This document shows, one piece after another, positions 15,287 through 32,492 of a stretch of DNA of 64,000 bases. Within the stretch, counting starts at the first letter, position 1. Each line of letters begins with the position of its first letter. This DNA comes from a virus (Duplodnaviria > Caudoviricetes), in IMG/VR virus record IMGVR_UViG_3300033121_000370, positions 1 to 64,000 of that record; one strand, 5' to 3'. Made by a program: the position numbers and the translations under genes. Below the pieces are notes generated by a model. The model made no database searches, was not told the origin of the DNA, and saw only the letters and a program-made list of their open reading frames with translations.

Positions 15287-15598
15287 ATGGTTGGATTCTA
15301 CCTTGATGATACACGGGAGCCGCCTAACAACGGGGAGTGGGTTGTAGCTCGTAACTTCGAGGAAGCTATCCTAGCCTATGCCCGGAATCGCTTAGTCATA
15401 TCTACCCTGAGCCTTGACCATGACTTAGGGGAAATAGCTACAGGCTTGGACTTTCTAAGGTGGTTAGAACGTAACTACCCGAATGATTTGCTGGATAAAG
15501 CTATCATAGTGCACTCAGCTAATCCTGTAGGTAAAGCTAGGATGCAGAACTTCATCAGTGACTTTATCAGGAGTAACCCATATGGATACACCACTTAA
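15287..15598 (+). CDS. cyclic-phosphate-processing receiver (cREC) domain protein
   Basis: FYLDDTREPP, SLDHDLG, VHSANPVG motifs. Confidence 0.8.
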   Translation: MVGFYLDDTREPPNNGEWVVARNFEEAILAYARNRLVISTLSLDHDLGEIATGLDFLRWLERNYPNDLLDKAIIVHSANPVGKARMQNFISDFIRSNPYGYTT

Positions 15599-15785
15599 AG
15601 TTTCAGTAGTTATATCCGTAGCTACTGTAATATTCCTGGGATGGGCAGCTGTAGATGCTATAGCTAAGCTACCCCAGCCTACCGCCTCAGCTCCTACCTC
15701 TATCCAGGAGTGCTGGGACAAGCCTCTGGTCCCGAACGATAAAATCCTTGAGGTTCAATCTCTTATGGAGGCTTTGCTCAAATGA
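15582..15785 (+). CDS. small membrane protein
   Basis: AGGAGTAAC RBS; hydrophobic VSVVISVATVIFLGWAAV. Confidence 0.55.
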   Translation: MDTPLKVSVVISVATVIFLGWAAVDAIAKLPQPTASAPTSIQECWDKPLVPNDKILEVQSLMEALLK

Positions 15786-16033
15786 TACATCACACTCCAC
15801 TTAGCCTACCGGCCAACACCCCATTCAGGTTTATACCTTTGCCCGGAGCTACCGAGCCTTGGACAGCTTCTACCTTCTGCATCGACGGGGTAGGTGAGCT
15901 GTATGTATTCGATGAGGCTGGCTTGCCCCAGTCCAACACTAGCCACTACAACGAGCTAAATGAATTCTGGCAGTATCTCGGGGTATTCCTTACCCTTGGG
16001 CTGCCCGAGTGTTTTGAAGCTGAGAGTGAGTAA
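15782..16033 (+). CDS. hypothetical protein
   Basis: ATGA-coupled to the previous gene. Confidence 0.5.
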   Translation: MIHHTPLSLPANTPFRFIPLPGATEPWTASTFCIDGVGELYVFDEAGLPQSNTSHYNELNEFWQYLGVFLTLGLPECFEAESE

Positions 16034-16054
16034 AGCGAAGAGGAGTAACTTAGT

Positions 16055-16336
16055 ATGATGCAGCAGAACAACGCCTTTAGTCGCTTGGTAGGAGAGCCCT
16101 ACCTGGCCCGTATGACTGTGGATAACTTGGCAAAGTTTGCCCGAGACTGTATCCGTAACAACCGTAGGGTAGGTTCTACCTATCTGGCCAGGTACGCTCG
16201 GAATTCCTATCACAATGCCGAGCTGTTCTATGCGTCTGATGCCAAGGCTATTCAGATGCTGCTTAACTACAGCCAGACGTGTAGCCTACGTATCCCAGCC
16301 CCAGCCGTAGTTGTTGAAGGGGCTGTAGCAGCTTAA
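16055..16336 (+). CDS. hypothetical protein
   Basis: AGGAGTAAC RBS. Confidence 0.55.
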   Translation: MMQQNNAFSRLVGEPYLARMTVDNLAKFARDCIRNNRRVGSTYLARYARNSYHNAELFYASDAKAIQMLLNYSQTCSLRIPAPAVVVEGAVAA

Positions 16337-16363
16337 CCCTAGAAAGAGGGGGAGAAAGAGAAC

Positions 16364-16654
16364 ATGCCTACTACCGAAAAACCCCCTGTTGTAGTACACA
16401 CCTTCACTACCTTATCCCTTAGCGATACCAAAGCGTACCTAGAGAGTATCGTGGGCCGCGAGCACTCCGGCTGGGCAGACATAATCTCCAAAGCTGAGAG
16501 CCTTGCATATGAAGGCCACAAAGTAGCAATCTCCTACACTATCTCTGGTACTGAAGAATTAGTTAACCAAGAAGATGAGGTATTCGAGGTCTTACTCAAG
16601 CGTGAGTTTGGCCTAAAAGATGGGGATGAAATCCTTTTTGTAGATGTAGCCTAG
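16364..16654 (+). CDS. hypothetical protein
   Basis: GGAG RBS, 96 aa. Confidence 0.55.
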   Translation: MPTTEKPPVVVHTFTTLSLSDTKAYLESIVGREHSGWADIISKAESLAYEGHKVAISYTISGTEELVNQEDEVFEVLLKREFGLKDGDEILFVDVA

Positions 16655-16669
16655 AACAGTTAAACCATT

Positions 16670-16866
16670 ACAGGTGGTGTGGAGCAGTGGTAGCTCCACT
16701 CTGGCGGACGAAGCCCTAGCGTTACCGGGAAACCGGCCCGCCTAAGCGGGTTAAGTACTCTTATGTCACCTTCAGACCACTGAGAGTACTGAGTTAGGAA
16801 GCAGTCAGAAATATCGGAGTTTGAAGGCCCGACCAGTTATCCTTATAAGACCGACTGGCCACCTGT
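16670..16866 (+). ncRNA. candidate 197-nt multibranch structured RNA with a tRNA-like 5' end
   Basis: closing stem ACAGGTGG/CCACCTGT; D-arm GAGC-AGTGGTA-GCTC; CCGG-GAAA-CCGG; CCCGC/GCGGG; AGTACTCT/AGAGTACT; CAGTC/GACTG. Confidence 0.6.
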
Positions 16867-16897
16867 TCTATTACCCTCTAACTAGGAGTAACCTACT

Positions 16898-17407
16898 ATG
16901 GAATACATTAGGTACACATCGAGAGATGTAATGCTCGCTGCCCAAGCTAGCGGTATCTTCGACGAGGACTGCGAATTTAAGCTAGGAGAGTTTTACCCTG
17001 AAAGAGCCCCCGTTGACCTGTGCTCGAGCCCTAAAGGAGCTCGAGCCCTACAAGAGTTTCTTGGTGAGATGCTCGAGCTAGTAGAAGGGGGTACCTATGG
17101 TGAAGACCCAGTTACCTTACTACCAGTTATGGATGAGTTTGGGAATAGAGTAGAGCACTACCGAGCTGTTCTGTACGTGGAAGGTCTTCAGTTCCTGGTT
17201 AGCCCTAAGAAAGCTCTAGACATGGTTTGGTCCAGCGCCACAAGAATGGCCACATGTAACCGTATCTACGACAATTATAATCACCCACTCAGTCTAGAAG
17301 AGGAACTCTCTAGTAAGGCCTTCAACCTGTTAAAAGAGCTCCGTAAGTTGAAGCTTAGGTACCTCCCGGAGGATAGACAGTTAGCCTTAACAAAAGAGCA
17401 GGAGTAA
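16898..17407 (+). CDS. hypothetical protein
   Basis: AGGAGTAACCTACTATG RBS, identical to that of rtcB. Confidence 0.6.
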   Translation: MEYIRYTSRDVMLAAQASGIFDEDCEFKLGEFYPERAPVDLCSSPKGARALQEFLGEMLELVEGGTYGEDPVTLLPVMDEFGNRVEHYRAVLYVEGLQFLVSPKKALDMVWSSATRMATCNRIYDNYNHPLSLEEELSSKAFNLLKELRKLKLRYLPEDRQLALTKEQE

Positions 17408-17413
17408 CCTACT

Positions 17414-18631
17414 ATGAAGGTATTCGAGGGAATCCGTGTGCCTATCAAGGCTTGGACAGACGGGGTAGAGTTAGAGGATGAGGCCAAGCAACAGCTAGTT
17501 AACCTTAGCTCTCTCCCGTTCGTACACAAGCACGTAGCTGTTATGCCTGACGTTCACTGGGGCAAAGGAGCTACGGTTGGCTCAGTCATAGCTACCAAGG
17601 GTGCTGTAGTCCCAGCTGCTGTAGGTGTAGACATAGGCTGTGGCATGATTGCCTGTATGACGAGCCTAGTAGCCAATGATTTGCCAGATAACCTATCACA
17701 AATACGCTCAGCTATAGAGCAAGCTGTGCCCCACGGACGTTCAGATAACGGAGGCTTGGCTGATAAAGGAAGACATCTAGGAGAGTTACCTAGTGAGGCT
17801 TCCAGTAATTTCCTAAGCTTACTAAATAGCCTGAACCAAATAGTAGAAGCAGCCCCCATTCTTGCTAAGCCAGCTGCTGCCTGTAGCCGACACATGGGCA
17901 CTCTTGGTACCGGCAATCACTTCATTGAGATTTGCCTAGACGAGGCTGACCGGGTTTGGATTATGCTCCACTCAGGTAGCCGGGGTATCGGTAACGCTAT
18001 CGGTACCTACTACATCAACAAGGCCAAGGAAGAGATGCGTAAGTACTTCATCAACCTTCCTGATGCAGACTTAGCCTATCTCCCAGAGGATACTCAGGCG
18101 TACAAGGAGTACCTAAGAGCTGTAGAGTGGGCTCAGGAGTTTTCAAAGGCTAATCGGGAAACCATGATGAGCCTTGTTGTATCCAGCTTGAAGAAGTCCT
18201 TAGGCCGAGAATTTACAAGCGCTGTGGTAGCTGTGAACTGCCATCACAACTATGTCTCTACTGAGAGACACTACGGAGAGAACTTGGTTATCACCCGTAA
18301 GGGTGCAGTATCTGCTAGGGAAGGGGAACTAGGCATTATCCCCGGCTCTATGGGTGCTAAGTCCTACATTGTCCGAGGTAAGGGCAACCGGGAGAGTTTC
18401 TGTAGCTGTTCCCACGGAGCAGGGCGTAGGTTATCTCGCAACAAGGCAAGGGAAGCTTTCACCCTTGAAGACCATGCTAGGGCAACTGCTGGTGTTGAGT
18501 GCCGTAAGGATGCCGAGGTCTTGGATGAGACACCGGGAGCCTATAAGGACATTGACGCAGTTATGCAAGCTCAAGCCGACCTAGTGGACATTGTTCACAC
18601 ACTAAAGCAGTTGGTTTGTATCAAAGGTTGA
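17414..18631 (+). CDS. rtcB: RtcB RNA ligase
   Basis: MPDVHWGKG, AVGVDIGCGM, GTLGTGNHF, HSGSRG, CHHNY, HGAGR, DETPGAYKDI, C-terminal KG. Confidence 0.95.
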   Translation: MKVFEGIRVPIKAWTDGVELEDEAKQQLVNLSSLPFVHKHVAVMPDVHWGKGATVGSVIATKGAVVPAAVGVDIGCGMIACMTSLVANDLPDNLSQIRSAIEQAVPHGRSDNGGLADKGRHLGELPSEASSNFLSLLNSLNQIVEAAPILAKPAAACSRHMGTLGTGNHFIEICLDEADRVWIMLHSGSRGIGNAIGTYYINKAKEEMRKYFINLPDADLAYLPEDTQAYKEYLRAVEWAQEFSKANRETMMSLVVSSLKKSLGREFTSAVVAVNCHHNYVSTERHYGENLVITRKGAVSAREGELGIIPGSMGAKSYIVRGKGNRESFCSCSHGAGRRLSRNKAREAFTLEDHARATAGVECRKDAEVLDETPGAYKDIDAVMQAQADLVDIVHTLKQLVCIKG

Positions 18632-19266: not shown

Positions 19267-21057
19267 ATGCCTGAACTTACCCCTGACGAGAGAGCAAGAG
19301 TTATCGGAGCATTAGAAAGGACTAATGCTATCCTAGAAGGAATTCCCTTCAGAGAGGAGTTCTATCTAAGTTACCGGGACGGAAGACCTATTCCTGAGTC
19401 CGCCCTTAGCTTCAGTATTGCCTTACCTCTTTCTGAGAAGAAACGTTGGTGCTTTTTTAAGCTCCACAGCAACGGTCGAAGAGATTTCCGAGAAATGAGC
19501 CTTAGCGGGGCTGACCTCCGCGGGGCTGACCTCCGCGGGGCTGACCTCAGCTGGGCTAACCTTAGCGGGGCTAACCTTAGCGGGGCTAACCTTAGCGGGG
19601 TTGGCCTCCGCAGGGCTGACCTTAGCGAGGCTAACCTCAGCTGGGCTAACCTTAGCGAGGCTAACCTTAGCGGGGCTAATCTCAGCAGGGCTGACCTTAG
19701 CGAGGCTAACCTTAGCGGGGCTAATCTCAGCAGGGCTGACCTCAGCAGGGCTGACCTCAGCAGGGCTGACCTCAGCAGGGCTGACCTTAGCGAGGCTGAC
19801 CTCAGCAGGGCTGACCTCAGCAGGGCTAATCTCAGCAGGGCTAATCTCAGCAGGGCTGACCTTAGCGAGGTTACTCTTGTGGGGGTTGACCTCCGCGGGG
19901 CTGACCTCCGCGGGGCTGACCTCCGCGGGGCTACTATTACTTCACCTACTACAGAGGGGAAACCTGACCCAATGTCTATATATGAACCAGTAGAGAGGGC
20001 TATAGGCAGAAAGACGCCGCCTACCTTAATGAATTACTCGGACTCACCGGCAGCTGTGTACGGGGGAGCCTATGTTGTAACAGCTGCCGAGCTAGCCAAG
20101 ATTACCGAAGGGGTTAAGCGAAGTAAAAACAACACCCTCCCTGATTTACTCCTTATGGGGGTAGAGCTTGAGGTAGAGCCCTTTGACACACAGGCTAGTC
20201 TTCCTGACGAAGAGGCCCGACGCCTAGCTAAAAGCGTAGCTGGGTGGGCCATCCTTAAGTCTGATGGTTCCTTGGGAAGAGGAGGCCGAGAGATTGTTAC
20301 CCGGCCTATGACCTTGGATGCCCATAGAGTAGCTTGGATGGAGTTCTTCAGGGACAAGCCTCACGAATACCTATCATCCTGGAAGAGTGGGCGCTGTGGC
20401 TTACACGTACACCTAAACAGGGCTGCTATTAGCCCCCTAACAGAGGGTAAACTAATCAGCTTCCTGAATGCTCCGAGTAACGTAAAGTTTACTCAGGACA
20501 TTGCTGGGCGTAACTTACTCCACAATGAATACGCTGCTATCGCTCCCCTAAAGAAGATAACAGAAGGCTTTAGAAGACACCGAGTAACATCTGGTGGACC
20601 TATGAAGAGATTGCTAACTGGGGGAAACCGCACAGGTAGTCGCCACACAGCTACAAACATCTCTCAGCGCAACAGTGGGACTACCTTGGAGGTAAGAATC
20701 TTCCGAGGTAACATTGGGCGCAACGGGGTGTTTCGGGTATTGGAGTTCCTGCACGCCCTTGTTAGCTACCTTAGCCTGAACACTAACTCAGCCACTACGG
20801 TAGACAACTGGCTGGATTTTGTAACTTGGTTCGGAGAGCCAGAAAATTCCAAGGCTTACCCCGAGTTCTACCAGTGGCTCCTTGTGAAGAAGTACCTGTT
20901 TCCTAAACCTATCAGAAACATTAGCAAAGCTCCCCAGCTCCTGCGAGAGAAGAAAGTAGCTTTGCTGAAGTTCAGCCTGGGAGAGGATGAGCCTACAGAT
21001 ATGGTAAAGGAACAACCCAACGGAGAGGAGACAAGCGAAGCATGTGTGTCATTCTAG
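19267..21057 (+). CDS. pentapeptide-repeat protein fused to a COOH-NH2 ligase (amidoligase_2-type) domain
   Basis: 29 (D/N)LSxA repeats, then GVELEVE, KSDGSL, EIVT, CGLHVH, TLEVRIFRG. Confidence 0.85.
   Translation: MPELTPDERARVIGALERTNAILEGIPFREEFYLSYRDGRPIPESALSFSIALPLSEKKRWCFFKLHSNGRRDFREMSLSGADLRGADLRGADLSWANLSGANLSGANLSGVGLRRADLSEANLSWANLSEANLSGANLSRADLSEANLSGANLSRADLSRADLSRADLSRADLSEADLSRADLSRANLSRANLSRADLSEVTLVGVDLRGADLRGADLRGATITSPTTEGKPDPMSIYEPVERAIGRKTPPTLMNYSDSPAAVYGGAYVVTAAELAKITEGVKRSKNNTLPDLLLMGVELEVEPFDTQASLPDEEARRLAKSVAGWAILKSDGSLGRGGREIVTRPMTLDAHRVAWMEFFRDKPHEYLSSWKSGRCGLHVHLNRAAISPLTEGKLISFLNAPSNVKFTQDIAGRNLLHNEYAAIAPLKKITEGFRRHRVTSGGPMKRLLTGGNRTGSRHTATNISQRNSGTTLEVRIFRGNIGRNGVFRVLEFLHALVSYLSLNTNSATTVDNWLDFVTWFGEPENSKAYPEFYQWLLVKKYLFPKPIRNISKAPQLLREKKVALLKFSLGEDEPTDMVKEQPNGEETSEACVSF
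19498..19932 (+). repeat. 29 x 15-nt tandem repeat encoding pentapeptides
   Basis: units such as GACCTCAGCAGGGCT, AACCTTAGCGGGGCT, GACCTCCGCGGGGCT recur identically. Confidence 0.95.
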
Positions 21058-22040
21058 AAATACCACCCGGTGTAAAGGTATCCCGAAAAACTCTTGAGAT
21101 TTGCTACGATAATAACCCACACGGCTGGGGTATTATGTGGCACGAGCCCACCGAGAATAAGATTTGGTACGCAAAGGACACAACATCCTTTGATAAGTTC
21201 TGGGATGTGTGGAAGGATGTTCCCGAGGATACTCCCCGAGGTGTTCACTTCCGCATCAAGACCCACGGCAAGGTAGACAGGGACAACTGCCACCCGTTCT
21301 TTATCTCCCAGAACCTAGGACTTATGCACAACGGAGTCTTGGATGTAGAAGAAGCCAACAAAGCTTTCTCTGACACTTGGCACTTCGTAGAGTATGACCT
21401 GAAGCCTCTTCTACAGCTAGGTGATACCAGTCTGCTGCAACCGGGTATGCCCTTGAGTGAGGTAATAGAAGACTTCGTAAGCGTAGGCTCTCGCCTTCTG
21501 TTCATGGATAACCTAGGGGAGACTGTACGCTTCGGTAAGTCTTGGCACGAGGAGAACGGGGTCTTCTACAGTAACTCCTACTCCCATAAGTCTAAGAAGC
21601 ACACGTATACATCCTTTAAGGGAAAAGATGCTTACGACGACTACTGGGAGCAGCGGGCCAACTATTCCTACAGGGCTCCCCCGGCCCCTCCACCACCAAC
21701 AACAACGGAGAAAGACCTGAAGCTAATAGAAAAAGAGGTTAGCCAAACCCTTACTGAAGAGGAGAAGGCCGAGGGTATTGAACTTCTGGATATTGAGTTT
21801 GATACCTATGACAAGGCTAACAAGTACCGCAAGGAAAACGGTGGCTTTGTTCGGGTATCCAAGGGAGTCTTTACCGTGTGTAATACCCGAGTGAAAGTCC
21901 CCAAGGAGACTACTTCTGGAGTGCTTAAGTCTGTAACTAGCCTCACGGACTTCAGCTTTCTTTCAGATGCGGAGAAGCTGGAGTACATTAAGACGTACCC
22001 AGAAGATACCTTGGATTTACTGTACGAAGCAATCCTGTAA
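21042..22040 (+). CDS. class II (Ntn) glutamine amidotransferase
   Basis: MCVI N-terminal Cys, NPHGWG, HFRIKTHG, NCHPF, MHNG, SDT. Confidence 0.85.
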   Translation: MCVILEIPPGVKVSRKTLEICYDNNPHGWGIMWHEPTENKIWYAKDTTSFDKFWDVWKDVPEDTPRGVHFRIKTHGKVDRDNCHPFFISQNLGLMHNGVLDVEEANKAFSDTWHFVEYDLKPLLQLGDTSLLQPGMPLSEVIEDFVSVGSRLLFMDNLGETVRFGKSWHEENGVFYSNSYSHKSKKHTYTSFKGKDAYDDYWEQRANYSYRAPPAPPPPTTTEKDLKLIEKEVSQTLTEEEKAEGIELLDIEFDTYDKANKYRKENGGFVRVSKGVFTVCNTRVKVPKETTSGVLKSVTSLTDFSFLSDAEKLEYIKTYPEDTLDLLYEAIL

Positions 22041-23291: not shown

Positions 23292-23546
23292 ATGGCTATC
23301 GACTATGTAACCAAGAACGAAGTTGTTACCCGTACCGTAACTGAGACTGTAAAGAAGAACATTGGTGTGATTTACACCTCGGATTCTTCTGACCGTGCTA
23401 TCCGTGTTACCCCGAGCTCATCCTTTCCGGGGCGCTTCACGGTTACCATCAGCAACCCGAACTCTAGCAATGAACTGGCCATCACGCTGAAGCCGCATGA
23501 CCTTGCGGACTTCCTTGATGCCGCTGCTACTCTTGTTAATGTCTAA
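23292..23546 (+). CDS. hypothetical protein
   Basis: AAGGAG RBS, host-like codon bias. Confidence 0.6.
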   Translation: MAIDYVTKNEVVTRTVTETVKKNIGVIYTSDSSDRAIRVTPSSSFPGRFTVTISNPNSSNELAITLKPHDLADFLDAAATLVNV

Positions 23547-23676
23547 AGCGAGAATAGCTAACCCTAGCCTAGCTCTATTTTCTTCTTCTACTAGACATGA
23601 GTCCCGCTGGGCAGTCAACAGTAGAACTTAGAGGTAGAAGCTAGGTGGTTCCCTAGGGGTAGCGAAGCCGTCTTTA

Positions 23677-23722
23677 GCCAAGGGTTCTTCCGGTACCCAA
23701 AAAGTAACCCTTGGCCCCTTTT
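23677..23722 (+). terminator. intrinsic terminator-like hairpin
   Basis: GCCAAGGGTT/AACCCTTGGC stem then CCCTTTT. Confidence 0.5.
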
Positions 23723-23781: not shown

Positions 23782-23928
23782 TGTACTTGGTAGTGTTAGT
23801 AAGCAGTTACTTCTCATTGGCGAGAGAGACACGGGTTCGATTCCCGTAGCCCTGCCTTATCTATTATGTAGGGCTTCGTCTAGTGGTAGGACACTTAAAT
23901 ATCTGCTTGCGACTGTTCTCCAGGTACA
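23782..23928 (+). ncRNA. yrlA: YrlA-type Y RNA with a permuted tRNA-like domain
   Basis: T-arm ACGGG-TTCGATT-CCCGT, loop-closed acceptor AGCCCTGC/GTAGGGCT, D-arm GTCT-AGTGGTA-GGAC, enclosed by GTAAGCAG/CTGCTTGC and TGTACTTGG/CCAGGTACA; just upstream of Ro60. Confidence 0.85.
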
Positions 23929-23933
23929 GCCTA

Positions 23934-24005
23934 TTTACCTAGTGTTGAGTGCTTCGGTTACTTCTTTCGGTGAAAATACACCGAGGCTATTGTTACCTGG
24001 GTAAA
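23934..24005 (+). ncRNA. short Y-RNA-like hairpin without a tRNA domain
   Basis: TTTACCTAG/CTGGGTAAA and GCTTCGGT/ACCGAGGC; shares TAGTGTT..GTTACTTC and 3' TGTT with the first copy. Confidence 0.65.
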
Positions 24006-24011: not shown

Positions 24012-24083
24012 AGCTGTGGGTAGTGAATAAGTTGGTTTCATCTTGTAAATGACTCGCCAGCTTAGCTGAGTACTCCCACAGCT
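24012..24083 (+). ncRNA. third Y-RNA-like hairpin
   Basis: AGCTGTGGG/CCCACAGCT and TAAGTTGG/CCAGCTTA around a TAGTG internal loop. Confidence 0.5.
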
Positions 24084-24124: not shown

Positions 24125-25489
24125 ATGGCTAGTATCAATCAGGCTCGGGCTGTAGCGGCTCGCACAGAAGTAACCCACGGAGGAACTCCTGTCCGCCCGT
24201 ACTCTAACGAGCAGCAGCTTACACGAGCAGTGCTTAGCTGTATGCTTTGGGAAGACCAGTTCTACGAAGATGGCGTAGACATCGCTAAGCGTATCAGCCA
24301 GCTGGTACCTTTGTGTGGGCCTTCATTTGTAGCAGGGCTAGCTATAAAGGCTCGGAAAGAATGGGGTCTTCGCCACGTTCCTCTTCTTCTCACCGTAGAG
24401 ATGCTCAAGCATCCCCTCCACAAGGCCTACGTAAGTGAGGCAATTACTAGTGGAGCTATCCACCGGGCAGATGATATGTCCGAACTCTTGGCTCTTTATT
24501 GGAAAGATGGAAAGAAGCCGCTTGCCAAGCAGCTAAAGAAGGGACTTGCTACAGTTTTCACCAGGTTCAACAGCTATGCACTTGCCAAGTATAAGGGTTT
24601 TGACAAGGCTGTATCCCTACGTGACGTTCTGTTTATGGTACACCCTAAGCCAAAGAACGCTGAGCAAGCTAAGACTTTCAAGGAGTTAGCCGATAAGACA
24701 ATTGCTTCCCCGGATACTTGGGAAGTTGCCTTGTCAGGTGGGGCTAATAAGAAGGAAACATTTACCCGGCTTATCCAAGAGAGTAAGCTAGGCGGCCTCG
24801 CCCTGCTACGTAACATCCGTAACATGGAACAGGCAGGTGTGGATAAAGCTATCATAACCTTGGCTTTGGATAACATGGACTGCTCCCTCATTGAGCCCTT
24901 CCGGTTTATCGCCTGTAACAAGTATGCTAGCCCGGCACTAGAGCCAGCTATTGAGCGAGCCTTTCTCCGGGCCAGTAAGGCTTACCAAAGCCAAGCACTA
25001 GCTGCTAAATCTGTAGCAGTTCTTGTAGACCACTCGGGCTCTATGTTCCACACCAAGGTGTCGGCTAAGTCTGAGCTAGAGCGCTTCGATGCTGCTGTAG
25101 CCTTGGCAGCTATTGTTCGGGAAGCTTTTGATAACACTAGAGTTTTTAGCTTCGAGAATAAAGTAACTGAGGTTAAGCCACGTCACGGCTTCAGTCTTAT
25201 AGATGAGGTCAGGCGCTGCCCGAGCGGTGGAACTAAGCTGTTCGATGCCCTGCACCTAGTAAAGGACACGGTTAATCCAGATATTATAATCTGCATCACT
25301 GATGAACAAGACACAGGTGGTACTCACCACAGTATGCCTGACCTTAGCAAAGGTCAGCGAGGCTTTATCATTAATGTAGGCAGCTACAAGAATGGCATTA
25401 GCCACGGCCAGTGGACTAACATCACAGGGTTCTCGGATGCTGTGGTTAGGTACATTGTGGCTGACTTAAAAGGGTGTGAGGCTCTATAA
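24125..25489 (+). CDS. rsr: Ro60/TROVE-vWA RNA-binding protein (Rsr)
   Basis: LWEDQFYEDG, LRHVP, RADDMSELL, YALAKY, LRDVLF, DTWE, ALLRNIRN; vWA DHSGS..TDEQ. Confidence 0.95.
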   Translation: MASINQARAVAARTEVTHGGTPVRPYSNEQQLTRAVLSCMLWEDQFYEDGVDIAKRISQLVPLCGPSFVAGLAIKARKEWGLRHVPLLLTVEMLKHPLHKAYVSEAITSGAIHRADDMSELLALYWKDGKKPLAKQLKKGLATVFTRFNSYALAKYKGFDKAVSLRDVLFMVHPKPKNAEQAKTFKELADKTIASPDTWEVALSGGANKKETFTRLIQESKLGGLALLRNIRNMEQAGVDKAIITLALDNMDCSLIEPFRFIACNKYASPALEPAIERAFLRASKAYQSQALAAKSVAVLVDHSGSMFHTKVSAKSELERFDAAVALAAIVREAFDNTRVFSFENKVTEVKPRHGFSLIDEVRRCPSGGTKLFDALHLVKDTVNPDIIICITDEQDTGGTHHSMPDLSKGQRGFIINVGSYKNGISHGQWTNITGFSDAVVRYIVADLKGCEAL

Positions 25490-25547
25490 TCCTCCTCTAA
25501 GTCCCTACTAAGGGCCACCGGGAGTAGCTACCCGGTGAAGAGTTTAC

Positions 25548-25651
25548 GCACAGGTATCCAAGTGGCAACTGGCAAAGCCAGCCCGCTTGCGGGTAAGGAC
25601 GGGGACTGTACCGAAAGGGGTACGTTAGTTCGAATCTAGCCCTGTGCACCA
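25548..25651 (+). tRNA. tRNA-like RNA with a 28-nt D-loop insertion and no pairable anticodon stem
   Basis: acceptor GCACAGG/CCTGTGC, A73, encoded CCA, T-arm GTTAG-TTCGAAT-CTAGC; after GGGGACTGTA the complementary strand is absent. Confidence 0.7.
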
Positions 25652-25662
25652 CCCATAGCTTT

Positions 25663-25826
25663 CTCTAGGTGGGGCGTATAGATTCACGGATGAGCCTAAG
25701 TACTTAGTACCTCTGGGCCACATCGAGGTCGGGAGAGGTGTAGCTACCTAATGGTGATGAAGCTGCTTCTTAACCTTGGAAACCCGGATACGCTAAAGGC
25801 TTTCTAGAGGCCGTGCCCACCTAGAG
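25663..25826 (+). ncRNA. candidate 164-nt structured RNA with a long-range pseudoknot
   Basis: 11-bp CTCTAGGTGGG/CCCACCTAGAG, CACGG/CCGTG, AGCCT/AGGCT, TACCTCT/AGAGGTG, TAGCT/AGCTG; GCGTAT pairs with ATACGC. Confidence 0.6.
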
Positions 25827-25844
25827 GATTACCTAAATACAAGA

Positions 25845-26135
25845 ATTCTGACCTAGGCGGCTCATTGACCTAGGCAGCGGGGCTCTACGACGGAGCTGAC
25901 ACAGAAGGGTTATTACCAGAGCTAGCCCCCTTCCGCTACAGGGAACAGGCCTGTCCGGTACGCCAGTAAGCCGGGAAGATTAGAGGTGGAACTGCAAGCG
26001 ATATTATTCGCGACTGCTGACCAACTCTTCCAAGGACCTCCCTCTCTAGAAGCAGTAGAGTGAGTTGGTATCTACAGAGGACCAGTGCACGGGTAGCCTC
26101 GACTGAGTAATTCCAACGGGAAGGCATTTTACTAG
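25845..26135 (+). ncRNA. further non-coding structured segment
   Basis: no plus-strand ORF; TGACCTAGGC direct repeat; ACCAACTC/GAGTTGGT stem. Confidence 0.35.
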
Positions 26136-26149
26136 GAGAGCTCATTATT

Positions 26150-26263
26150 ATGAAGAAGAAACCTAGTGTAGTAGCTAAGAACTTAGCTTCCCCTAGATAC
26201 CATCAAAGGGTGGTGCCTAACAAGAAGAAAGAAGTTAAACCTGAGATAACTGAGGAGGACTAA
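26150..26263 (+). CDS. 37-aa basic peptide
   Basis: AGGAG RBS; MKKKPSVVAKNLASPRYHQRVVPNKKK; not in the ORF track. Confidence 0.6.
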   Translation: MKKKPSVVAKNLASPRYHQRVVPNKKKEVKPEITEED

Positions 26264-26266
26264 CTA

Positions 26267-26572
26267 ATGCTATCACCACTTCAAACTGCCTATATCTCTC
26301 AGCCTAGAATTTCCAAGACTGACGGTGGGGATTATTTCTGCGTAGGTTACGTCTACGGAGATACTAAGGGGCGTTTCCTAGATGGAACCTTAATTCACAC
26401 CAGTAAGCTGGAGAAGATAGACCTAAGAAGCGGGTCTATAGATACTCTTAATTCTATTTACCGGATTGCTAGCGAGGCCGAAATTGCAACCTACCTACAG
26501 GCTAATAGAAATGGCAACGGCTGTAGCACTCACGTCTGCCGGTGTGGGCGGAAAGACTCATCAGACGTTTAG
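26267..26572 (+). CDS. hypothetical protein
   Basis: GAGGAGG RBS; GYVYGDTKGRFLDGTLIHTS. Confidence 0.6.
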   Translation: MLSPLQTAYISQPRISKTDGGDYFCVGYVYGDTKGRFLDGTLIHTSKLEKIDLRSGSIDTLNSIYRIASEAEIATYLQANRNGNGCSTHVCRCGRKDSSDV

Positions 26573-26867
26573 ACTAGGCTGTGTACTATACGACCGAAAG
26601 GGCCGTGTAGTCAAGGCCAAGGTAAACTCCCTGAAAACTCATCCAAAGATGGCCAAGCTAACCCCTTGGCCTTTTCTACATGCGGAACAGGCGTGTATCC
26701 TTAGCCAAGGCGTAGACAACTGCGAAGGCCTGAGCTTGTTGGTTGTCCGGGTGCGGAGGGATGGCAGCTACGGTATGGCTGAGCCGTGCGTTGTGTGCAA
26801 GAAATTAATAGAGGCAGCTGGAATAACTAATGTTCACTGGAGCACCCCGGAGTGGAGCGCTCGTTAA
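26511..26867 (+). CDS. Zn-dependent CMP/dCMP-type deaminase-fold protein
   Basis: HAE and PCVVC motifs. Confidence 0.8.
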   Translation: MATAVALTSAGVGGKTHQTFRLGCVLYDRKGRVVKAKVNSLKTHPKMAKLTPWPFLHAEQACILSQGVDNCEGLSLLVVRVRRDGSYGMAEPCVVCKKLIEAAGITNVHWSTPEWSAR

Positions 26868-27375: not shown

Positions 27376-27924
27376 ATGACGCTGTTTGCCGAGTTTCCTA
27401 AGATTTATCGCTTCTGGGAGCAAGATATTGTTGTAACCGAGAAGATTGATGGGACTAATGGCCTTATTCTTATCAACGAAGACCTGTCCGAGGTAAAGGC
27501 TGGTTCTCGCTCTAGGTTTATTACACCAACAAACGATAATTATGGATTTGCCAAGTGGGTCGAAGATAACAAGGAAGAGCTGAGAAAGCTTGGGCCGGGC
27601 TACCACTACGGAGAATGGTGGGGCCAGGGTATCCAGCGGGGGTATCGTATGCCGAGAAAGGTATTTAGCCTCTTTAATGTCCACCGTTGGTCCGACCCTC
27701 TGGTTAGGCCTAGCTGCTGTGACGTTGTACCTGTGGTATACCAAGGACTCATTCAGGGTTATCTGGAGAAGTTCCCTAACTACACAGCTGTTCCGAGCAC
27801 CTCGCCCGCAGCAGACCGTTATGGCGTAACGTTTACTGACGTTGAAGGTCTTATGCTTTACTTTACGAAGTCTGGGACGTACATGAAGCACCTAAAGAAG
27901 CCAGGCCACAAGGAGGAGAAGTAA
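27376..27924 (+). CDS. ATP-dependent RNA ligase, Rnl2-like adenylation domain only
   Basis: TEKIDGTN (motif I), YGEWWGQGIQ, FSLFN, EGLML. Confidence 0.8.
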   Translation: MTLFAEFPKIYRFWEQDIVVTEKIDGTNGLILINEDLSEVKAGSRSRFITPTNDNYGFAKWVEDNKEELRKLGPGYHYGEWWGQGIQRGYRMPRKVFSLFNVHRWSDPLVRPSCCDVVPVVYQGLIQGYLEKFPNYTAVPSTSPAADRYGVTFTDVEGLMLYFTKSGTYMKHLKKPGHKEEK

Positions 27925-30259: not shown

Positions 30260-30816
30260 TGACAACCCCCGACCCCAAGTCCCCGCTGCCGGATGATGTA
30301 GAGAAATCACTTAGCAATGTCGCTTGCGGTGTAACCGACTATTCGGACTGCACGGTACTCCGCGCCCACGTTTCGTCCCTTTACGAAACCATCGCCGCGC
30401 TGCAAGCAGAAAAGATGCAGTGGTATCATAACGCGACAAATAACGCGGCAGAGTTACTCGCAGCAGAGAGCGAGTTATTTGGAGCAAATAATAAGATTGC
30501 CGCGCTGGAGGCCGAGAACAAGCGGCTGGTGGAGGCGTTGCAAAAGATAGCCACAACAGAATACCGCATCTATGACGGAGGTAGACCGTACACAAGTGAG
30601 CATAGCAGTGGGTACGCTTTAGGAGTCGCGGACGGCCATAGACTTGCCGCGAAGTGGGCAGAGGAAGCCCTCGCGCAGATGGGAGAGAAGTCATGCCAGA
30701 AATGTGATGGAGCCGGGTATGACCACGGTATAGGTGAAGGACTAAGGCTACAAGACATACCGTGCCAACAGTGCAGCGGAACCGGAAAGGTAGGTGAAAG
30801 ATGTCTACAGCGTTAA
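30259..30816 (+). CDS. coiled-coil protein with a DnaJ-type CxxCxGxG pair
   Basis: CQKCDGAG and CQQCSGTG. Confidence 0.55.
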   Translation: MTTPDPKSPLPDDVEKSLSNVACGVTDYSDCTVLRAHVSSLYETIAALQAEKMQWYHNATNNAAELLAAESELFGANNKIAALEAENKRLVEALQKIATTEYRIYDGGRPYTSEHSSGYALGVADGHRLAAKWAEEALAQMGEKSCQKCDGAGYDHGIGEGLRLQDIPCQQCSGTGKVGERCLQR

Positions 30817-31184
30817 AAGAAGCACTGGCAGTCTGGGATAGGCTAATAGAGGGTGAAGACTGGGACTTCCCGGAGAAGGTCAGGAAACAGTATAAGCTAA
30901 TTCGAGATACCGTAGAGCAAGTAGAGGCTGCTAAGGCTTTATCTATAGCTTGGAACGAACGGGCCGTTGAGGAAGACTTCAAGCGGAGGAAAGCAGAGAA
31001 AGCAATCACTTCCCTAGAGAAAAAGATTAAGCGTCTGGAAAAAGACAACATAAAGTGGCGGATTAGAGCTACAGACTATTTTGAGGATATTCACAACTTA
31101 CGCGATGGGTACAAAGTTCAGATTAAGCGTCTTACCCATGACCTAGAAAGCGCACTCGAGAGGATTAGCCATGTTCAAGTTTGA
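30801..31184 (+). CDS. coiled-coil hypothetical protein
   Basis: 127 aa, overlap-coupled. Confidence 0.55.
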   Translation: MSTALKEALAVWDRLIEGEDWDFPEKVRKQYKLIRDTVEQVEAAKALSIAWNERAVEEDFKRRKAEKAITSLEKKIKRLEKDNIKWRIRATDYFEDIHNLRDGYKVQIKRLTHDLESALERISHVQV

Positions 31185-31356
31185 AGATTTGGATTGCCTT
31201 CGCCTGGTCGCTATGCGAACCCGCTTCAAGGTAAACCAGAAAAAGAGAGACCTGGAGTTTCTTCAGGGTGAAATCAAGAGCTTAGAAGCTGAGGCTGACG
31301 GCTTGGAAAGACTCCTGAAAGACTGTGGTGAAGTAGCCTCCAAAGATTTTTCTTGA
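31171..31356 (+). CDS. hypothetical protein
   Basis: GAGG RBS, 61 aa. Confidence 0.5.
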   Translation: MFKFEDLDCLRLVAMRTRFKVNQKKRDLEFLQGEIKSLEAEADGLERLLKDCGEVASKDFS

Positions 31357-31381
31357 CTACTCAAGTCCAAGCTGTTAAGCT
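31353..31381 (+). promoter_or_regulatory. sigma70-like promoter
   Basis: TTGACT-N17-TAAGCT. Confidence 0.55.
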
Positions 31382-31400
31382 GAGACTTGAGAAACATATA

Positions 31401-31612
31401 GCTGCCTCGTCCGTCCCACACTATAGCGACAGGTTAAACAAAGGCTCTACCAATTCAGGCGGTAGACTGGGAATGCAGCAAGAACCCTGTAAAAAGAAAG
31501 CCCCCAAGTTTCGCTTGGGAACCGAGTAGCGCACAACTACGTGTGCTTGGTTAAAGAGGATATGGCAAGGAAACACACACTCCGCCTTCCCTCCTAGGAT
31601 AACCCTAGGATA
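31401..31612 (+). ncRNA. candidate structured RNA or leader
   Basis: GCTGC/GCAGC, TCCCA/TGGGA, TCTACC/GGTAGA, CCCAAG/CTTGGG, AACCGAG/TTGGTT; ACAGGTT can pair with AACCCTGT. Confidence 0.45.
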
Positions 31613-31707
31613 AAACTCTTAACCAGTCCCAGCGGGGGGATATAGTTACGCCTAAGCGCTTAGGCGCTAAGAGATTACAACTAAAGATTAGAAAGGGAGA
31701 TAAGCTA

Positions 31708-32268
31708 ATGTCCAACGTCTACTTTTTGGCGGACTTACACCTAGGGCATAGGGCAATCCTAGGCTTCAACGACTCCTCTAATAAGCCCTTGAGGGTATTC
31801 CCAGGCGGAGTACCCGAAATGCACAAATACCTAGTGTCTAAATGGAATGCTAAGGTAGAGCCTAGCGCTAAGGTTATCGTTCTAGGAGATATTTTTCTAG
31901 TAGGTTCCTCTAGTGAGCCTGGCTACAAGGAACGCCTAGACGAGGTAGCAGAAGTACTTAGAAGCCTGAATGGAGCTACTAAGGTCCTAGTTATGGGTAA
32001 CCATGATGTAGACCCTTCGAAGCATCCTCTTCTGAAGGAAATCTTTCAGGTACACCTAGGTTGCTACCAGTTTAAGAGAGCCATCTGTACACATATTCCG
32101 GTACATCCTGGCTCTCTAGAAGGGCGCTTCGACTACAACATCCACGGCCACCTTCACACTTACCAGGTGAAGGATACTTTAGGTAATCCAGACCCTAGGT
32201 ACATTAACGTAGCCGTAGAGCAACTAGACTACACACCTAAGACTTATGAGGAGCTTACCAGCAGATGA
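31708..32268 (+). CDS. calcineurin-like metallophosphoesterase
   Basis: DLHLGH, LGD, GNHD, HIP, HGHLH motifs. Confidence 0.9.
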   Translation: MSNVYFLADLHLGHRAILGFNDSSNKPLRVFPGGVPEMHKYLVSKWNAKVEPSAKVIVLGDIFLVGSSSEPGYKERLDEVAEVLRSLNGATKVLVMGNHDVDPSKHPLLKEIFQVHLGCYQFKRAICTHIPVHPGSLEGRFDYNIHGHLHTYQVKDTLGNPDPRYINVAVEQLDYTPKTYEELTSR

Positions 32269-32435
32269 AGAAGTTACTAAGTGAAGAAGCTAAGGATGCC
32301 TCGGTAATCCTTATTCTGTTTGTAGGTGCTTTGTACCTCTTAGGCTGGGCTGCCTTTCACTCCCCAAAGGGAGGGCTGCCTAAGCCATCAACTGTAGTTT
32401 GTCAAGCATCGACTAATAGCGGGTTGGAGAAGTAG
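32265..32435 (+). CDS. small membrane protein overlapping the tRNA 5' end
   Basis: ATGA-coupled; VILILFVGALYLLGWAAF. Confidence 0.45.
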   Translation: MKKLLSEEAKDASVILILFVGALYLLGWAAFHSPKGGLPKPSTVVCQASTNSGLEK

Positions 32436-32492
32436 TATCTCGTCAGGCCCATAACCTGAAGACCACTGGTGCAATTCCAGTACCCGCACCCA
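32418..32492 (+). tRNA. tRNA-Met (CAT), initiator-like
   Basis: full cloverleaf, A1:A72 mismatch, TCAGG-CCCATAA-CCTGA, encoded CCA. Confidence 0.9.

What the first reader, a model, noticed from the sequence alone, without database searches (positions are those of the whole stretch)
15287..32492. Phage-encoded multi-route RNA repair and tRNA-mimic system
Seen in one early region: cREC protein (15287), RtcB (17414), Ro60 with three Y-like RNAs (23782-25489), an anticodon-less tRNA-like RNA, further structured RNAs, a Zn deaminase (26511), an Rnl2-like ligase (27376), a calcineurin-like phosphoesterase (31708) and tRNA-Met. Established: RtcB seals 2',3'-cyclic-P/5'-OH ends; Rnl2 needs 3'-OH/5'-P; phosphoesterases heal ends; bacterial rsr-yrl-rtcB loci respond to tRNA damage. 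Inference: both direct and heal-and-seal repair, plus RNA scaffolds or decoys, to counter anticodon nucleases and other RNase defences. I see no polynucleotide kinase in the window.
Basis: partly seen in the sequence, partly recalled or inferred. Interest (0 to 1): 0.8.

Follow-up and report, generated by a model that had tools for sequence, protein, structure and literature searches.

The report
Phage RNA-repair genes with Ro60 RNAs
A 73-kb phage carries an RtcB RNA ligase, a Ro60 protein with three Y RNAs, a minimal second ligase and several odd tRNA-like RNAs; each part is a known kind, and they behave as separately swappable cassettes rather than one fixed system.

Summary
The window is a complete 72.7-kb phage. 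At the stated coordinates Pfam finds cREC, RtcB, Ro60, a Zn deaminase, an RNA-ligase-family protein and a metallophosphoesterase, plus tRNA-Met.

Covariance models built only from RNAs beside Ro60 in other phages hit three tandem sites upstream of Ro60. One is a full YrlA-type Y RNA (85 bits); two are short Y RNAs.

The "Rnl2-like" ligase is a 182-aa protein made of the nucleotidyltransferase domain alone. Its confident model is closest to T4 Rnl2 and the Naegleria RNA ligase.

The "anticodon-less tRNA-like RNA" is real and looks derived from a class II tRNA-Tyr. A 170-nt RNA after it is conserved in one relative.

- Phage RtcB/Rnl/cREC/TROVE repair sets and phage Ro60 with Y RNAs are already published.
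- The genome has no polynucleotide kinase, RtcA, KptA or archease match.
- RtcB occurs in only 2 of 27 near-complete Ro60 phages.
- Close relatives lack RtcB or the RNA cluster.
- The deaminase also occurs in five distant replication-module relatives that show none of the RNA-repair genes.
- An RNA without an anticodon loop is a poor decoy for anticodon nucleases.

Verdict: new member of a known kind, moderate interest. The unclassified RNAs are the novel residue. The scan's own first-stage notes had already flagged these RNAs on this same genome.

The parts
15287..15598 (+). cREC (cyclic-phosphate processing receiver-like) protein, 103 aa
   Evidence: PF20274, E 1.7e-21, 77 bits against a cut-off of 27. 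Acidic residues at YLDD and LSLDHD are seen in the translation.
16668..16866 (+). Unclassified structured RNA of about 197 nt. It starts like a tRNA 5' strand plus D-arm and contains a twin hairpin.
   Evidence: Fold -79.8 kcal/mol, z -4.4, 0 of 200 shuffles as good. No Rfam match. Relatives delete 16340-16667 and keep sequence from 16668 on. The motif GCCCGC..GCGGGT is shared with the tRNA-like RNA.
16898..17407 (+). ORF of 169 aa directly upstream of RtcB, function unknown
   Evidence: No Pfam, PHROG or NCBIfam hit. The only homologue is in L227, where it is not next to RtcB. The AF2 model is unusable, pLDDT 42.
17414..18631 (+). RtcB RNA ligase, 405 aa
   Evidence: PF01139, E 1.6e-131, profile positions 1-426. 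60-67% identical to RtcB of many phages. Flanked by near-identical ribosome-binding-site/start repeats at 17400 and 18632. Absent between the same two neighbour genes in relative L227.
23675..23722 (+). Perfect hairpin followed by a T-rich run after ORF 23292-23546; likely terminator before the Y RNA array
   Evidence: Sequence read and fold. A promoter-like site lies at 23735-23763, but promoter scan counts are not above chance.
23782..23929 (+). Y RNA 1, YrlA type. Ro60-binding stems enclose a circularly permuted tRNA-like domain: T-arm 23831-23847, loop-closed acceptor 23848-23875, D-arm 23878-23892.
   Evidence: Model R1, built from 19 RNAs of other phages: 85 bits, E 1.5e-22, full length. 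In the family alignment 29 of 32 pairs covary. Anatomy read.
23934..24005 (+). Y RNA 2, short type without a tRNA domain
   Evidence: Model R2, built from 22 short Y RNAs of other phages: 36.4 bits, E 6e-7, full length.
24012..24083 (+). Y RNA 3, short type
   Evidence: R2: 22.9 bits, E 0.0017. Its homologue in relative L225 (174-246, 27.4 bits) has different but still pairing outer-stem sequences.
24125..25489 (+). Ro60 (TROVE plus vWA) protein, 454 aa
   Evidence: TROVE E 9.5e-11; vWA_2 and vWA_Ro60 matches are weak. Best solved relative is Thermus phage phiLo Ro60, 9KOP/9L5Y, E 1.6e-21 over residues 29-444. Thousands of TROVE homologues at 47-51% identity.
25548..25653 (+). tRNA-like RNA. 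Acceptor stem, 3-bp D-stem with a 28-nt twin-hairpin insertion, no anticodon arm, a GAAA-capped arm in the variable-arm position, T-arm, A73 and encoded CCA. Probably derived from a class II tRNA-Tyr.
   Evidence: Sequence read. Not called by default ARAGORN, and Rfam matches only its T-arm. In a relative's contig a canonical GUA anticodon arm plus variable arm precedes position 25620 (table 7). The acceptor ends match a phage tRNA-Tyr.
25662..25834 (+). RNA-X: conserved structured RNA of about 170 nt, unknown class
   Evidence: Window against L225: the core is nearly identical although Ro60 is only 79% identical at the protein level. 6 of 55 predicted pairs change on both sides and stay paired. 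No Rfam match.
25835..26149 (+). Further non-coding stretch with predicted hairpins, unclassified
   Evidence: No long + strand ORF. It is part of the 839-nt block 25489-26327 that one relative replaces with 114 nt (table 5). The fold of the whole 25490-26150 stretch is not better than shuffles, z -1.0.
26511..26867 (+). Small Zn-dependent cytidine/deoxycytidylate-type deaminase; probably nucleotide metabolism, not shown to act on RNA
   Evidence: PF00383, E 1e-8. HAE and PCVVC are seen in the translation. Homologues lie beside the primase-helicase in five replication-module relatives. No match among solved structures.
27376..27924 (+). Minimal ATP-dependent ligase, nucleotidyltransferase domain only, of the Rnl2/Rnl5 nick-sealing RNA ligase clade, 182 aa
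   Evidence: PF09414, E 1.1e-11; phrog_548, E 4e-28. Motifs I, III, IIIa, IV and V are seen by eye. AF2 pLDDT 94.5. Top structural matches are T4 Rnl2, the Naegleria ligase and REL1, ahead of DNA ligases. The family has 6,824 homologues, mostly 172-200 aa.
31708..32268 (+). Calcineurin-like metallophosphoesterase, 186 aa; candidate 3'-end healing enzyme, role not shown
   Evidence: PF00149, E 4.6e-5; phrog_547, E 1.5e-39; weak match to PdeM. Homologues lie within 10 kb of RtcB in 4 of 80 phage loci and beside a kinase and Rnl1-like ligase in L230.
32418..32492 (+). tRNA-Met (CAT) with encoded CCA
   Evidence: ARAGORN, and Rfam at 48.9 bits. Read by eye: A1 opposite A72, and C instead of U before the anticodon.

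Best explanation
This is the accessory, early-side region of a roughly 73-kb tailed phage. It has collected several independent RNA-care cassettes of kinds already described.

Module A is cREC plus RtcB. RtcB directly seals 2',3'-cyclic-phosphate or 3'-phosphate ends to 5'-OH ends, which metal-independent RNases such as anticodon nucleases and toxin RNases leave in tRNA and other RNAs. cREC is predicted, not shown, to open cyclic phosphates.

Module B is Ro60 with three tandem Y RNAs transcribed just upstream. One is a YrlA-type RNA with a permuted tRNA-like domain; two are short. By analogy with Deinococcus, Salmonella and Thermus phage phiLo, they should form Ro60-Y RNA particles that tether or modulate host 3'-5' exoribonucleases such as PNPase and handle misfolded or damaged structured RNA.

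Module C is a stand-alone nucleotidyltransferase-only ligase of the nick-sealing RNA ligase clade. It can only join 3'-OH to 5'-phosphate, so without a phage kinase it would serve nicks made by metal-dependent nucleases, or nicks in RNA or RNA-DNA duplexes. The metallophosphoesterase may heal 3' ends.

Downstream of Ro60 lie remnants or derivatives of a tRNA cluster (a tRNA-Tyr-derived RNA without an anticodon arm) and a conserved 170-nt RNA of unknown role.

Shown here: identity of the parts, homology and structure of the Y RNAs, the ligase fold, and modular presence or absence among relatives. Inferred: every biochemical activity, the targets, and any cooperation between modules.
For: Phage identity: portal, terminase, capsid, DNA polymerase and RNR hits, and a complete 72,741-bp virus record.

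Domain hits.

Y RNAs: independent models R1 and R2 hit exactly the three tandem sites. The family alignment shows strong covariation. The same architecture sits beside Ro60 in many phages: (24 loci), two RNAs in L225 and seven in L231.

Ligase: high-confidence model closest to T4 Rnl2, NgrRnl and REL1. L230 also carries a separate DNA ligase, so there the small ligase is not the only ligase.

Modularity: RtcB is missing precisely between its two neighbour genes in L227, and repeats flank it in the window. The RNA cluster is replaced in one relative and ORF 16364-16654 is deleted in others.

Literature: phage RtcB, Rnl, cREC and TROVE sets (PMC7824862, PMC9503650); YrlA RNAs in bacteria and phages (PMC4201824); a phage Ro60 binding two upstream Y-like RNAs and host PNPase (PMC12135203).
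Against: No activity, transcript or host is known. The third Y RNA scores only 22.9 bits. The small ligase is the only ATP-dependent ligase found in this genome: there is no PF01068 match. In Caulobacter phage CcrBL9 its homologue sits among replication genes, so a DNA or Okazaki-fragment role is not excluded. cREC is 1.8 kb from RtcB with unrelated small ORFs and an RNA between them. Its linkage to RtcB in other phages is weak: 4 of 50 records, and 0 of 27 near-complete ones. The tRNA-like RNA and RNA-X could be functional partners rather than remnants.
Confidence: 0.6

Rival explanations
1. All the parts form one coordinated multi-route system: RtcB seals directly; cREC and the phosphoesterase heal ends for the Rnl2-like ligase; Y RNAs and the tRNA-like RNA act as scaffolds or decoys. 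Together they defeat anticodon nucleases and other RNase defences.
For: All parts lie on one strand within 17 kb of the early-side region. cREC, RtcB and a homologous phosphoesterase recur within about 20 kb in the phage fragments L073 and L078. L230 links the small ligase with a phosphoesterase, a kinase and an Rnl1-like ligase. L231 links the small ligase, DUF7695 and Ro60. Bacterial proviruses L132 and L137 have Y RNAs, Ro60 and RtcB contiguous.
Against: No kinase, KptA, RtcA or archease match. Unrelated genes are interspersed: a pentapeptide protein with a weakly GATase-like neighbour, Lar and DUF7695. RtcB is in only 2 of 27 near-complete Ro60 phage records. Relatives lose RtcB or the RNA cluster independently. 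The tRNA-like RNA has no anticodon loop to act as bait.
Confidence: 0.15
2. The ligase, deaminase and phosphoesterase belong to the DNA replication and nucleotide-metabolism module that starts just downstream, not to RNA repair. The ligase seals replication nicks with RNA-primed 3' ends, the deaminase is a dCMP deaminase, and the phosphoesterase is a DNA-end or nucleotide phosphatase.
For: There is no other ATP-dependent DNA ligase match in the genome. The CcrBL9 homologue lies between DNA polymerase I, a Dda helicase, a dNMP kinase and thymidylate synthase. Deaminase homologues sit beside the primase-helicase in five relatives. The phosphoesterase weakly matches the ligase-associated DNA-damage enzyme PdeM. 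These genes lie 0.2-6 kb upstream of the primase-helicase and DNA polymerase.
Against: The ligase fold is closer to RNA ligases than to DNA ligases. L230 carries both this ligase and a true DNA ligase, and places the small ligase near RNA-repair genes. No thymidylate synthase was found to use dUMP from a dCMP deaminase.
Confidence: 0.3
3. The RNAs after Ro60 (the tRNA-like RNA, RNA-X and the rest) and the 197-nt RNA are functional new phage non-coding RNAs. They could be extra Ro60 or RtcB clients, tethers, or mimics that bind proteins recognising the tRNA acceptor/T-arm elbow, rather than decaying tRNA genes.
For: The acceptor stem, T-arm, D-loop G18-G19 and CCA of the tRNA-like RNA are intact while only the anticodon arm is missing. 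Its new hairpins carry stable tetraloops. The twin-hairpin module occurs in two separate RNAs, where 0.01 copies are expected by chance; the pattern was derived from these two copies. The RNA-X core is far more conserved than the neighbouring protein gene, with compensatory changes. The 197-nt RNA folds with z -4.4 and is kept when the adjacent ORF is deleted. Relative L225 also has a non-canonical tRNA-like RNA.
Against: There are only two sequences for RNA-X and one for the tRNA-like RNA. One relative lacks the whole cluster. No expression data exist. No homologues were found in IMG/VR or JGI metagenomes by pattern search.
Confidence: 0.3

Closest known systems
Salmonella Typhimurium rsr-yrlBA-rtcBA RNA repair operon (PMC4201824, PMC7790460)
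   Same: A Ro60 orthologue, a YrlA-type Y RNA with a tRNA-like domain, further short Y RNA(s), and the RtcB ligase in one genome on one strand.
   Different: Here the genes are in a phage and are not contiguous: 5.5 kb with unrelated genes lie between RtcB and the Y RNAs. No RtcA was found. An RtcR-type activator was not searched for. There are three Y RNAs, and cREC is present.
Thermus phage phiLo Ro60 with Yrl1 and Yrl2 (PMC12135203; PDB 9KOP, 9L5Y)
   Same: A phage-encoded Ro60 with tandem Y-like RNAs directly upstream. It is the best solved sequence relative (E 1.6e-21).
   Different: The sequences are distant. Whether this phage's Ro60 binds PNPase is untested. phiLo was not reported to carry RtcB.
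Jumbo-phage RNA-repair repertoires: RtcB, Rnl1/Rnl2, cREC, TROVE, phosphoesterases (Iyer et al. 2021, PMC7824862; PMC9503650)
   Same: The same gene families and the same proposed logic: different ligases for different RNase end chemistries, cREC linked to RNA ligases, and TROVE with a tRNA-like partner.
   Different: This is a mid-sized phage of 73 kb, not a jumbo phage. It has no kinase or HAD phosphatase. Its ligase is a nucleotidyltransferase domain alone.
T4 Pnkp plus Rnl1/Rnl2 heal-and-seal pathway
   Same: An ATP-dependent ligase whose fold is nearest to the T4 Rnl2 adenylyltransferase domain.
   Different: No polynucleotide kinase-phosphatase. The ligase lacks the Rnl2 C-terminal domain and scores 23 bits against the 197-bit cut-off of the Rnl2 equivalog model.
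Caulobacter jumbo phages (CcrColossus, CcrPW and relatives)
   Same: CcrColossus and CcrPW carry Ro60 with tandem Y RNAs, 3-5 per locus by motif and covariance-model scans, plus RtcB. Related Caulobacter phages carry a homologue of the small ligase at about 50% identity.
   Different: Their genomes are 280-320 kb. Their genes are far apart: RtcB lies about 60-70 kb from Ro60. In CcrBL9 the ligase sits in a replication neighbourhood.

Membership tests
RtcB RNA ligase (PF01139) | Full-length match to the family profile above the curated cut-off | tested here: met
   439.9 bits against a cut-off of 27; profile 1-426 covers residues 27-405. 60-67% identity to phage RtcBs.
RtcB RNA ligase (PF01139) | Metal-binding Cys/His/Asp residues and the GMP-accepting histidine | tested here: inconclusive
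   Conserved peptides MPDVHWGK, GCGMIACM, GNHFIEIC and AVNCHHNY are present in the window protein. I did not align them residue by residue to a solved RtcB.
Ro60 / TROVE | TROVE (HEAT-repeat ring) domain followed by a vWA domain | tested here: met
   TROVE 42 bits against a cut-off of 23. The vWA families match at E 6e-5 to 4e-4 but below their cut-offs. The alignment to phiLo Ro60 spans residues 29-444.
Ro60 / TROVE | Y RNA gene(s) encoded next to the protein gene | tested here: met
   Three Y RNAs lie 42-343 nt upstream on the same strand.
YrlA-type bacterial/phage Y RNA (Chen et al. 2014) | The 5' and 3' ends pair into a Ro60-binding stem with conserved internal-loop sequences | tested here: met
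   The window has GGUAGUG..UUACUUC..CUGUUCUCC where the family has GG(C/U)GUAG..UUACUUC..CUUGUUCC. The stems pair.
YrlA-type bacterial/phage Y RNA (Chen et al. 2014) | A tRNA-like domain in the order T-arm, loop-closed acceptor stem, D-arm | tested here: met
   T-arm with loop UUCGAUU, an 8-bp closed acceptor, and a D-arm with loop AGUGGUA. R1 scores 85 bits over all 158 positions.
YrlA-type bacterial/phage Y RNA (Chen et al. 2014) | Binding to Ro60 and tRNA-type modifications | not testable with these tools
   Needs immunoprecipitation or gel-shift assays and modification mapping.
Rnl2 RNA ligase (T4 Rnl2 type) | Nucleotidyltransferase motifs I, III, IIIa, IV and V, and an adenylyltransferase fold nearest to Rnl2 | tested here: met
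   Motifs seen by eye: KIDGTN, YGEWWG, FSLFNV, VEGLMLY, MKHLKK. Foldseek top hits are 2HVR, 2HVQ and 1S68 (TMq 0.57-0.64, E about 1e-6 to 1e-5), ahead of DNA ligases.
Rnl2 RNA ligase (T4 Rnl2 type) | C-terminal domain needed for nick adenylylation, and a score above the equivalog cut-off | tested here: not met
   The protein ends after motif V at 182 aa. TIGR02307 gives 23.2 bits against a cut-off of 197. The whole family is about 172-200 aa. So it is not an Rnl2 orthologue but a minimal relative.
cREC domain (PF20274) | Profile match, and a stand-alone protein with no histidine kinase context | tested here: met
   77.2 bits against a cut-off of 27. It is a 103-aa stand-alone protein in a phage. 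Cyclic-phosphate hydrolysis is only a published prediction (PMC7824862).
Heal-and-seal RNA repair (Pnkp plus ATP-dependent ligase) | A 5'-kinase to phosphorylate 5'-OH ends | tested here: not met
   No PF13671 match in the 72.7-kb genome, while all 14 control genomes matched. Other kinase folds were not searched.
Heal-and-seal RNA repair (Pnkp plus ATP-dependent ligase) | A 3'-phosphatase or cyclic phosphodiesterase | tested here: inconclusive
   A metallophosphoesterase and cREC are present. Their substrates are unknown.
Canonical tRNA (for 25548-25653) | Cloverleaf with an anticodon arm, recognised by tRNA finders | tested here: not met
   Default ARAGORN makes no call and Rfam matches only the T-arm. 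Only a lowered-threshold ARAGORN run forces a tRNA-Ala with an intron. The acceptor stem, T-arm, A73 and CCA are present.

The most novel reading that the evidence does not exclude
Besides the known Ro60/Y RNA and RtcB modules, this phage lineage encodes at least three new classes of structured RNA. One is a tRNA-Tyr-derived acceptor/T-arm mimic with a twin-hairpin insertion and no anticodon arm. One is a conserved 170-nt RNA-X. One is a 197-nt RNA upstream of RtcB that shares the twin-hairpin module. In this reading they work with Ro60 or RtcB as extra tethers or clients, or as decoys for host factors or toxins that recognise the tRNA elbow or acceptor end.
Probability: 0.15. Interest if true: 0.7.

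Novelty: new member of a known kind. Interest (0 to 1): 0.42.

Why it matters
The window is a compact, complete phage genome in which two RNA-care modules known from bacteria and jumbo phages sit together with tandem Y RNAs: RtcB with cREC, and Ro60 with Y RNAs. If its host can be found or its genes expressed elsewhere, it would be a convenient model for asking what phage Ro60-Y RNA particles and phage RtcB do during infection.

The comparative work gives three general points:
- Phage Ro60 genes are almost always flanked by arrays of 2-7 Y RNAs. In the six loci checked for tRNAs, four lay inside arrays of 18-32 tRNA genes, which ties phage Ro60 to tRNA biology.
- There is a very large family of about 180-aa stand-alone ligases made of the nucleotidyltransferase domain alone. 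Their fold matches nick-sealing RNA ligases and their biochemistry is untested.
- These modules are exchanged as cassettes at conserved ribosome-binding-site/start junctions.

The unclassified RNAs are candidates for new phage non-coding RNA classes.

Tried and rejected
- Rfam (gathering and E-value modes) finds none of the Y RNAs, the tRNA-like RNA, RNA-X or the 197-nt RNA. I therefore built my own models.
- Relaxed ARAGORN proposed a tRNA-Ala with an intron and a permuted tmRNA over 25450-26200. I rejected both as low-threshold artefacts: the default run finds nothing and the proposed tag peptide is atypical.
- ORF 16898-17407: the AF2 single-sequence model has pLDDT 42. The protein-atlas lead to Arr-type ADP-ribosyltransferases is weak, 135 shared features, and I dropped it. 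The genome has no KptA family match.
- ORF 22067-22921: no family hit and no usable atlas hit.
- RNA-X pattern searches gave one chance hit in a GC-rich coding region in IMG/VR (L226) and none in JGI metagenomes.
- L228 is identical to the window and so uninformative.
- The promoter scan is not above chance, 13 found against 16 expected.
- Sequencing-run search: no RNA holder listed, so nothing can be said about expression.
- The replication-module relatives L145-L224 show no RtcB, Ro60, cREC, ligase or phosphoesterase; five carry a deaminase homologue. No close full-length relative of this phage was found in IMG/VR or GenBank phages.
- The twin-hairpin motif was not found near Ro60 or RtcB in other fetched loci.

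Full report
**What the window is.** The window is the first 64 kb of a 72,741-bp virus record that CheckV rates complete. It encodes a portal, large terminase and major capsid protein on the minus strand at the left end. A primase-helicase, DNA polymerase and ribonucleotide reductase lie on the plus strand from 32.5 kb. The finding covers the plus-strand block between these two modules, so "early-side accessory region of a phage" is a fair description. No close full-length relative was found in GenBank phages or IMG/VR. Contigs 80-99% alike occur in river, aquaculture and activated-sludge metagenomes.

**Proteins.**
- cREC, 15287-15598: PF20274, E 1.7e-21.
- RtcB, 17414-18631: PF01139, E 1.6e-131, full length.
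- Ro60, 24125-25489: TROVE E 9.5e-11 plus vWA. The best solved relative is the Thermus phage phiLo Ro60, E 1.6e-21.
- A small HAE/PCxxC deaminase, 26511-26867.
- A PF09414 ligase, 27376-27924.
- A metallophosphoesterase, 31708-32268: phrog_547, E 1.5e-39.

tRNA-Met(CAT) is at 32418-32492. Between these genes lie unrelated ones: a pentapeptide-repeat protein with a weakly GATase-like neighbour, Lar, DUF7695 and many small ORFs without family matches.

**Y RNAs.** Rfam reports nothing here, so I tested the claim independently. Beside the Ro60 genes of other phage contigs I found the same architecture again and again. It runs: an outer stem; a 5' internal loop GG(C/U)G(U/A)AG; an inner stem; UUACUUC; a small hairpin; then either a circularly permuted tRNA-like domain (T-arm, loop-closed acceptor, D-arm) or nothing; then the inner stem, CGCUUGUUCC and the outer stem.
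- An alignment of 19 long forms shows compensatory changes in 29 of 32 predicted pairs.
- A covariance model built from it, without the window, hits 23777-23942 at 85 bits, E 1.5e-22, over its full length.
- A second model, built from 22 short forms of other phages, gives three tandem plus-strand hits: 23782-23928, 23934-24005 and 24012-24083, at 43.7, 36.4 and 22.9 bits. These are its only hits below E 0.01 in the window. No further site outside this array was found in the rest of the genome.

So there is one YrlA-type RNA and two short Y RNAs directly upstream of Ro60. This matches what Chen et al. 2014 (PMC4201824) described for bacteria and phages, and what was shown biochemically for phage phiLo (PMC12135203). 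Relatives carry two such RNAs (L225, Ro60 79% identical; the contig starts just upstream, so more may exist) or seven (L231).

**The second ligase.** The ORF has only 182 aa, but by eye it contains motifs I, III, IIIa, IV and V. It belongs to a very large family: 6,824 homologues, nearly all 172-200 aa. With a 35-sequence alignment AlphaFold gives pLDDT 94.5. Foldseek ranks T4 Rnl2, the Naegleria nick-sealing ligase, trypanosome REL1 and archaeal Rnl3 above all DNA ligases. It lacks the Rnl2 C-terminal domain and fails the Rnl2 equivalog cut-off. "Rnl2-like" is therefore right for the fold and wrong for membership.

Its role is open. It is the only ATP-dependent ligase found in this genome. 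In Caulobacter phage CcrBL9 its homologue lies among replication genes. In contig L230, however, it coexists with a true DNA ligase and lies within 6 kb of a metallophosphoesterase, an AAA_33 kinase and an Rnl1-like ligase.

**Is it one system?** The evidence says the parts are loosely associated cassettes.
- Whole-genome searches find no AAA_33 kinase, KptA, archease or RtcA. A heal-and-seal route for 5'-OH ends is therefore incomplete.
- RtcB lies within 10 kb of Ro60 in none of 63 Ro60 phage loci. Ro60 lies within 10 kb of RtcB in 2 of 80 RtcB loci; both are proviruses with a contiguous Y RNA-Ro60-RtcB arrangement.
- At the level of whole records, RtcB is in 3 of 50 Ro60 phage records and in 2 of the 27 that are at least 90% complete. 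Both of those are Caulobacter jumbo phages.
- cREC is in 4 of 50 RtcB phage records.
- Among close relatives, L227 (neighbour proteins 89-91% identical) has the two genes that flank RtcB directly adjacent, without RtcB. In the window RtcB is bracketed by near-identical ribosome-binding-site/start repeats.
- One metagenomic relative replaces the whole 839-nt RNA block after Ro60 with 114 nt. Others lack ORF 16364-16654 but keep the RNA that follows it.
- Deaminase homologues sit beside the primase-helicase in five distant relatives that show no RtcB, Ro60, cREC, ligase or phosphoesterase.

**The other RNAs.**

*The tRNA-like RNA, 25548-25653.* It has a perfect 7-bp acceptor stem, A73 and an encoded CCA. 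It has a good T-arm and a 3-bp D-stem whose loop carries a 28-nt insertion of two tetraloop hairpins. No anticodon arm is present, and a GAAA-capped hairpin sits where a class II variable arm would be. In one relative's contig, the sequence just before position 25620 is a canonical anticodon arm with loop CUGUAAA plus a variable arm (table 7). The acceptor ends match a phage tRNA-Tyr. I conclude that it derives from a class II tRNA-Tyr that lost the 3' half of its anticodon arm. Whether it is a pseudogene or an adapted mimic cannot be decided from one sequence. Without an anticodon loop it is a poor decoy for anticodon nucleases.

*RNA-X, 25662-25834.* Its core is almost identical in L225 although the neighbouring Ro60 proteins are only 79% identical, and six pairs change on both sides. 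This is a real conserved RNA of unknown class.

*The 197-nt RNA, 16670-16866.* It folds far better than shuffles, z -4.4. It shares a twin-hairpin module with the tRNA-like RNA (the pattern was derived from these two copies, so the count is descriptive).

*Wider context.* Of six Ro60-bearing loci that I scanned for tRNAs, four lie inside arrays of 18-32 tRNA genes, one of them with an RNase P RNA. This suggests that the cluster after Ro60 in this phage is the reduced remnant, or a derivative, of such an array.

**Comparison with what is known.** Iyer, Burroughs, Aravind and colleagues set out the idea that phages carry combinations of RtcB, Rnl1/Rnl2, cREC, phosphoesterases and TROVE with a tRNA-like RNA to repair RNA cut by host RNases (PMC7824862, PMC9503650). 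YrlA RNAs next to phage Ro60 were reported in 2014 (PMC4201824). The bacterial rsr-yrl-rtcBA operon responds to damaged tRNAs (PMC7790460). This window is a new and unusually compact member of that kind. It differs in lacking RtcA and a kinase, in having three Y RNAs, in its minimal ligase, and in the extra unclassified RNAs.

**Verdict.** Novelty: new member of a known kind. Interest is moderate (0.42). It rests mainly on the unclassified RNAs and on the clean comparative picture of Y RNA arrays and cassette exchange.

Noticed in passing
window 32516-35236: The primase-helicase is 906 aa. Homologues in about 80 viral contigs align as matches of about 1,560 nt spanning residues 20-873. This implies an insertion of roughly 370 aa, possibly an intein.
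   Followed up: no
window 16041, 16884, 17400, 18632: Near-identical 17-nt ribosome-binding-site/start junctions (AGGAGTAAC.TA.TATG) precede four consecutive genes. Two of them bracket RtcB, which a close relative lacks exactly there. They look like recombination points for cassette exchange.
   Followed up: partly
window 19267-22040: The pentapeptide-repeat gene contains 26-29 tandem 15-nt units. It overlaps a gene with a weak GATase match. The pair recurs at low identity in L165. The repeats attract many unrelated metagenome contigs (depth bins).
   Followed up: no
window 32418-32492: By eye, tRNA-Met(CAT) has A1 opposite A72 and C instead of the universal U before the anticodon, at position 32449. 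Contigs in other samples read T there.
   Followed up: no
L002 3696-3971 (same in L064): A phage contig carries a bacterial class A RNase P RNA (126.8 bits) inside an array of 26 tRNA genes, next to Ro60 and several Y RNAs.
   Followed up: no
L231 15401-16291: Seven tandem Y RNAs, at least two with full tRNA-like domains (97 and 91 bits), lie directly upstream of a phage Ro60. This is the largest array seen here.
   Followed up: partly
L031 7344-7647: A phage of about 100 kb that carries Ro60 also encodes a tmRNA with tag DNTYRVAA near its tRNA genes.
   Followed up: no
L225 2384-2460: The closest relative has a tRNA-Asn(GUU)-like RNA. Its D, anticodon and T arms match the tRNA model (30.2 bits), but its acceptor stem does not pair canonically and ARAGORN does not call it. 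This is a second non-canonical tRNA-like RNA in this lineage.
   Followed up: partly
window 53595-60737 (minus strand): A 2,380-aa ORF lies next to a DNA-ejection-protein homologue. It was not examined.
   Followed up: no
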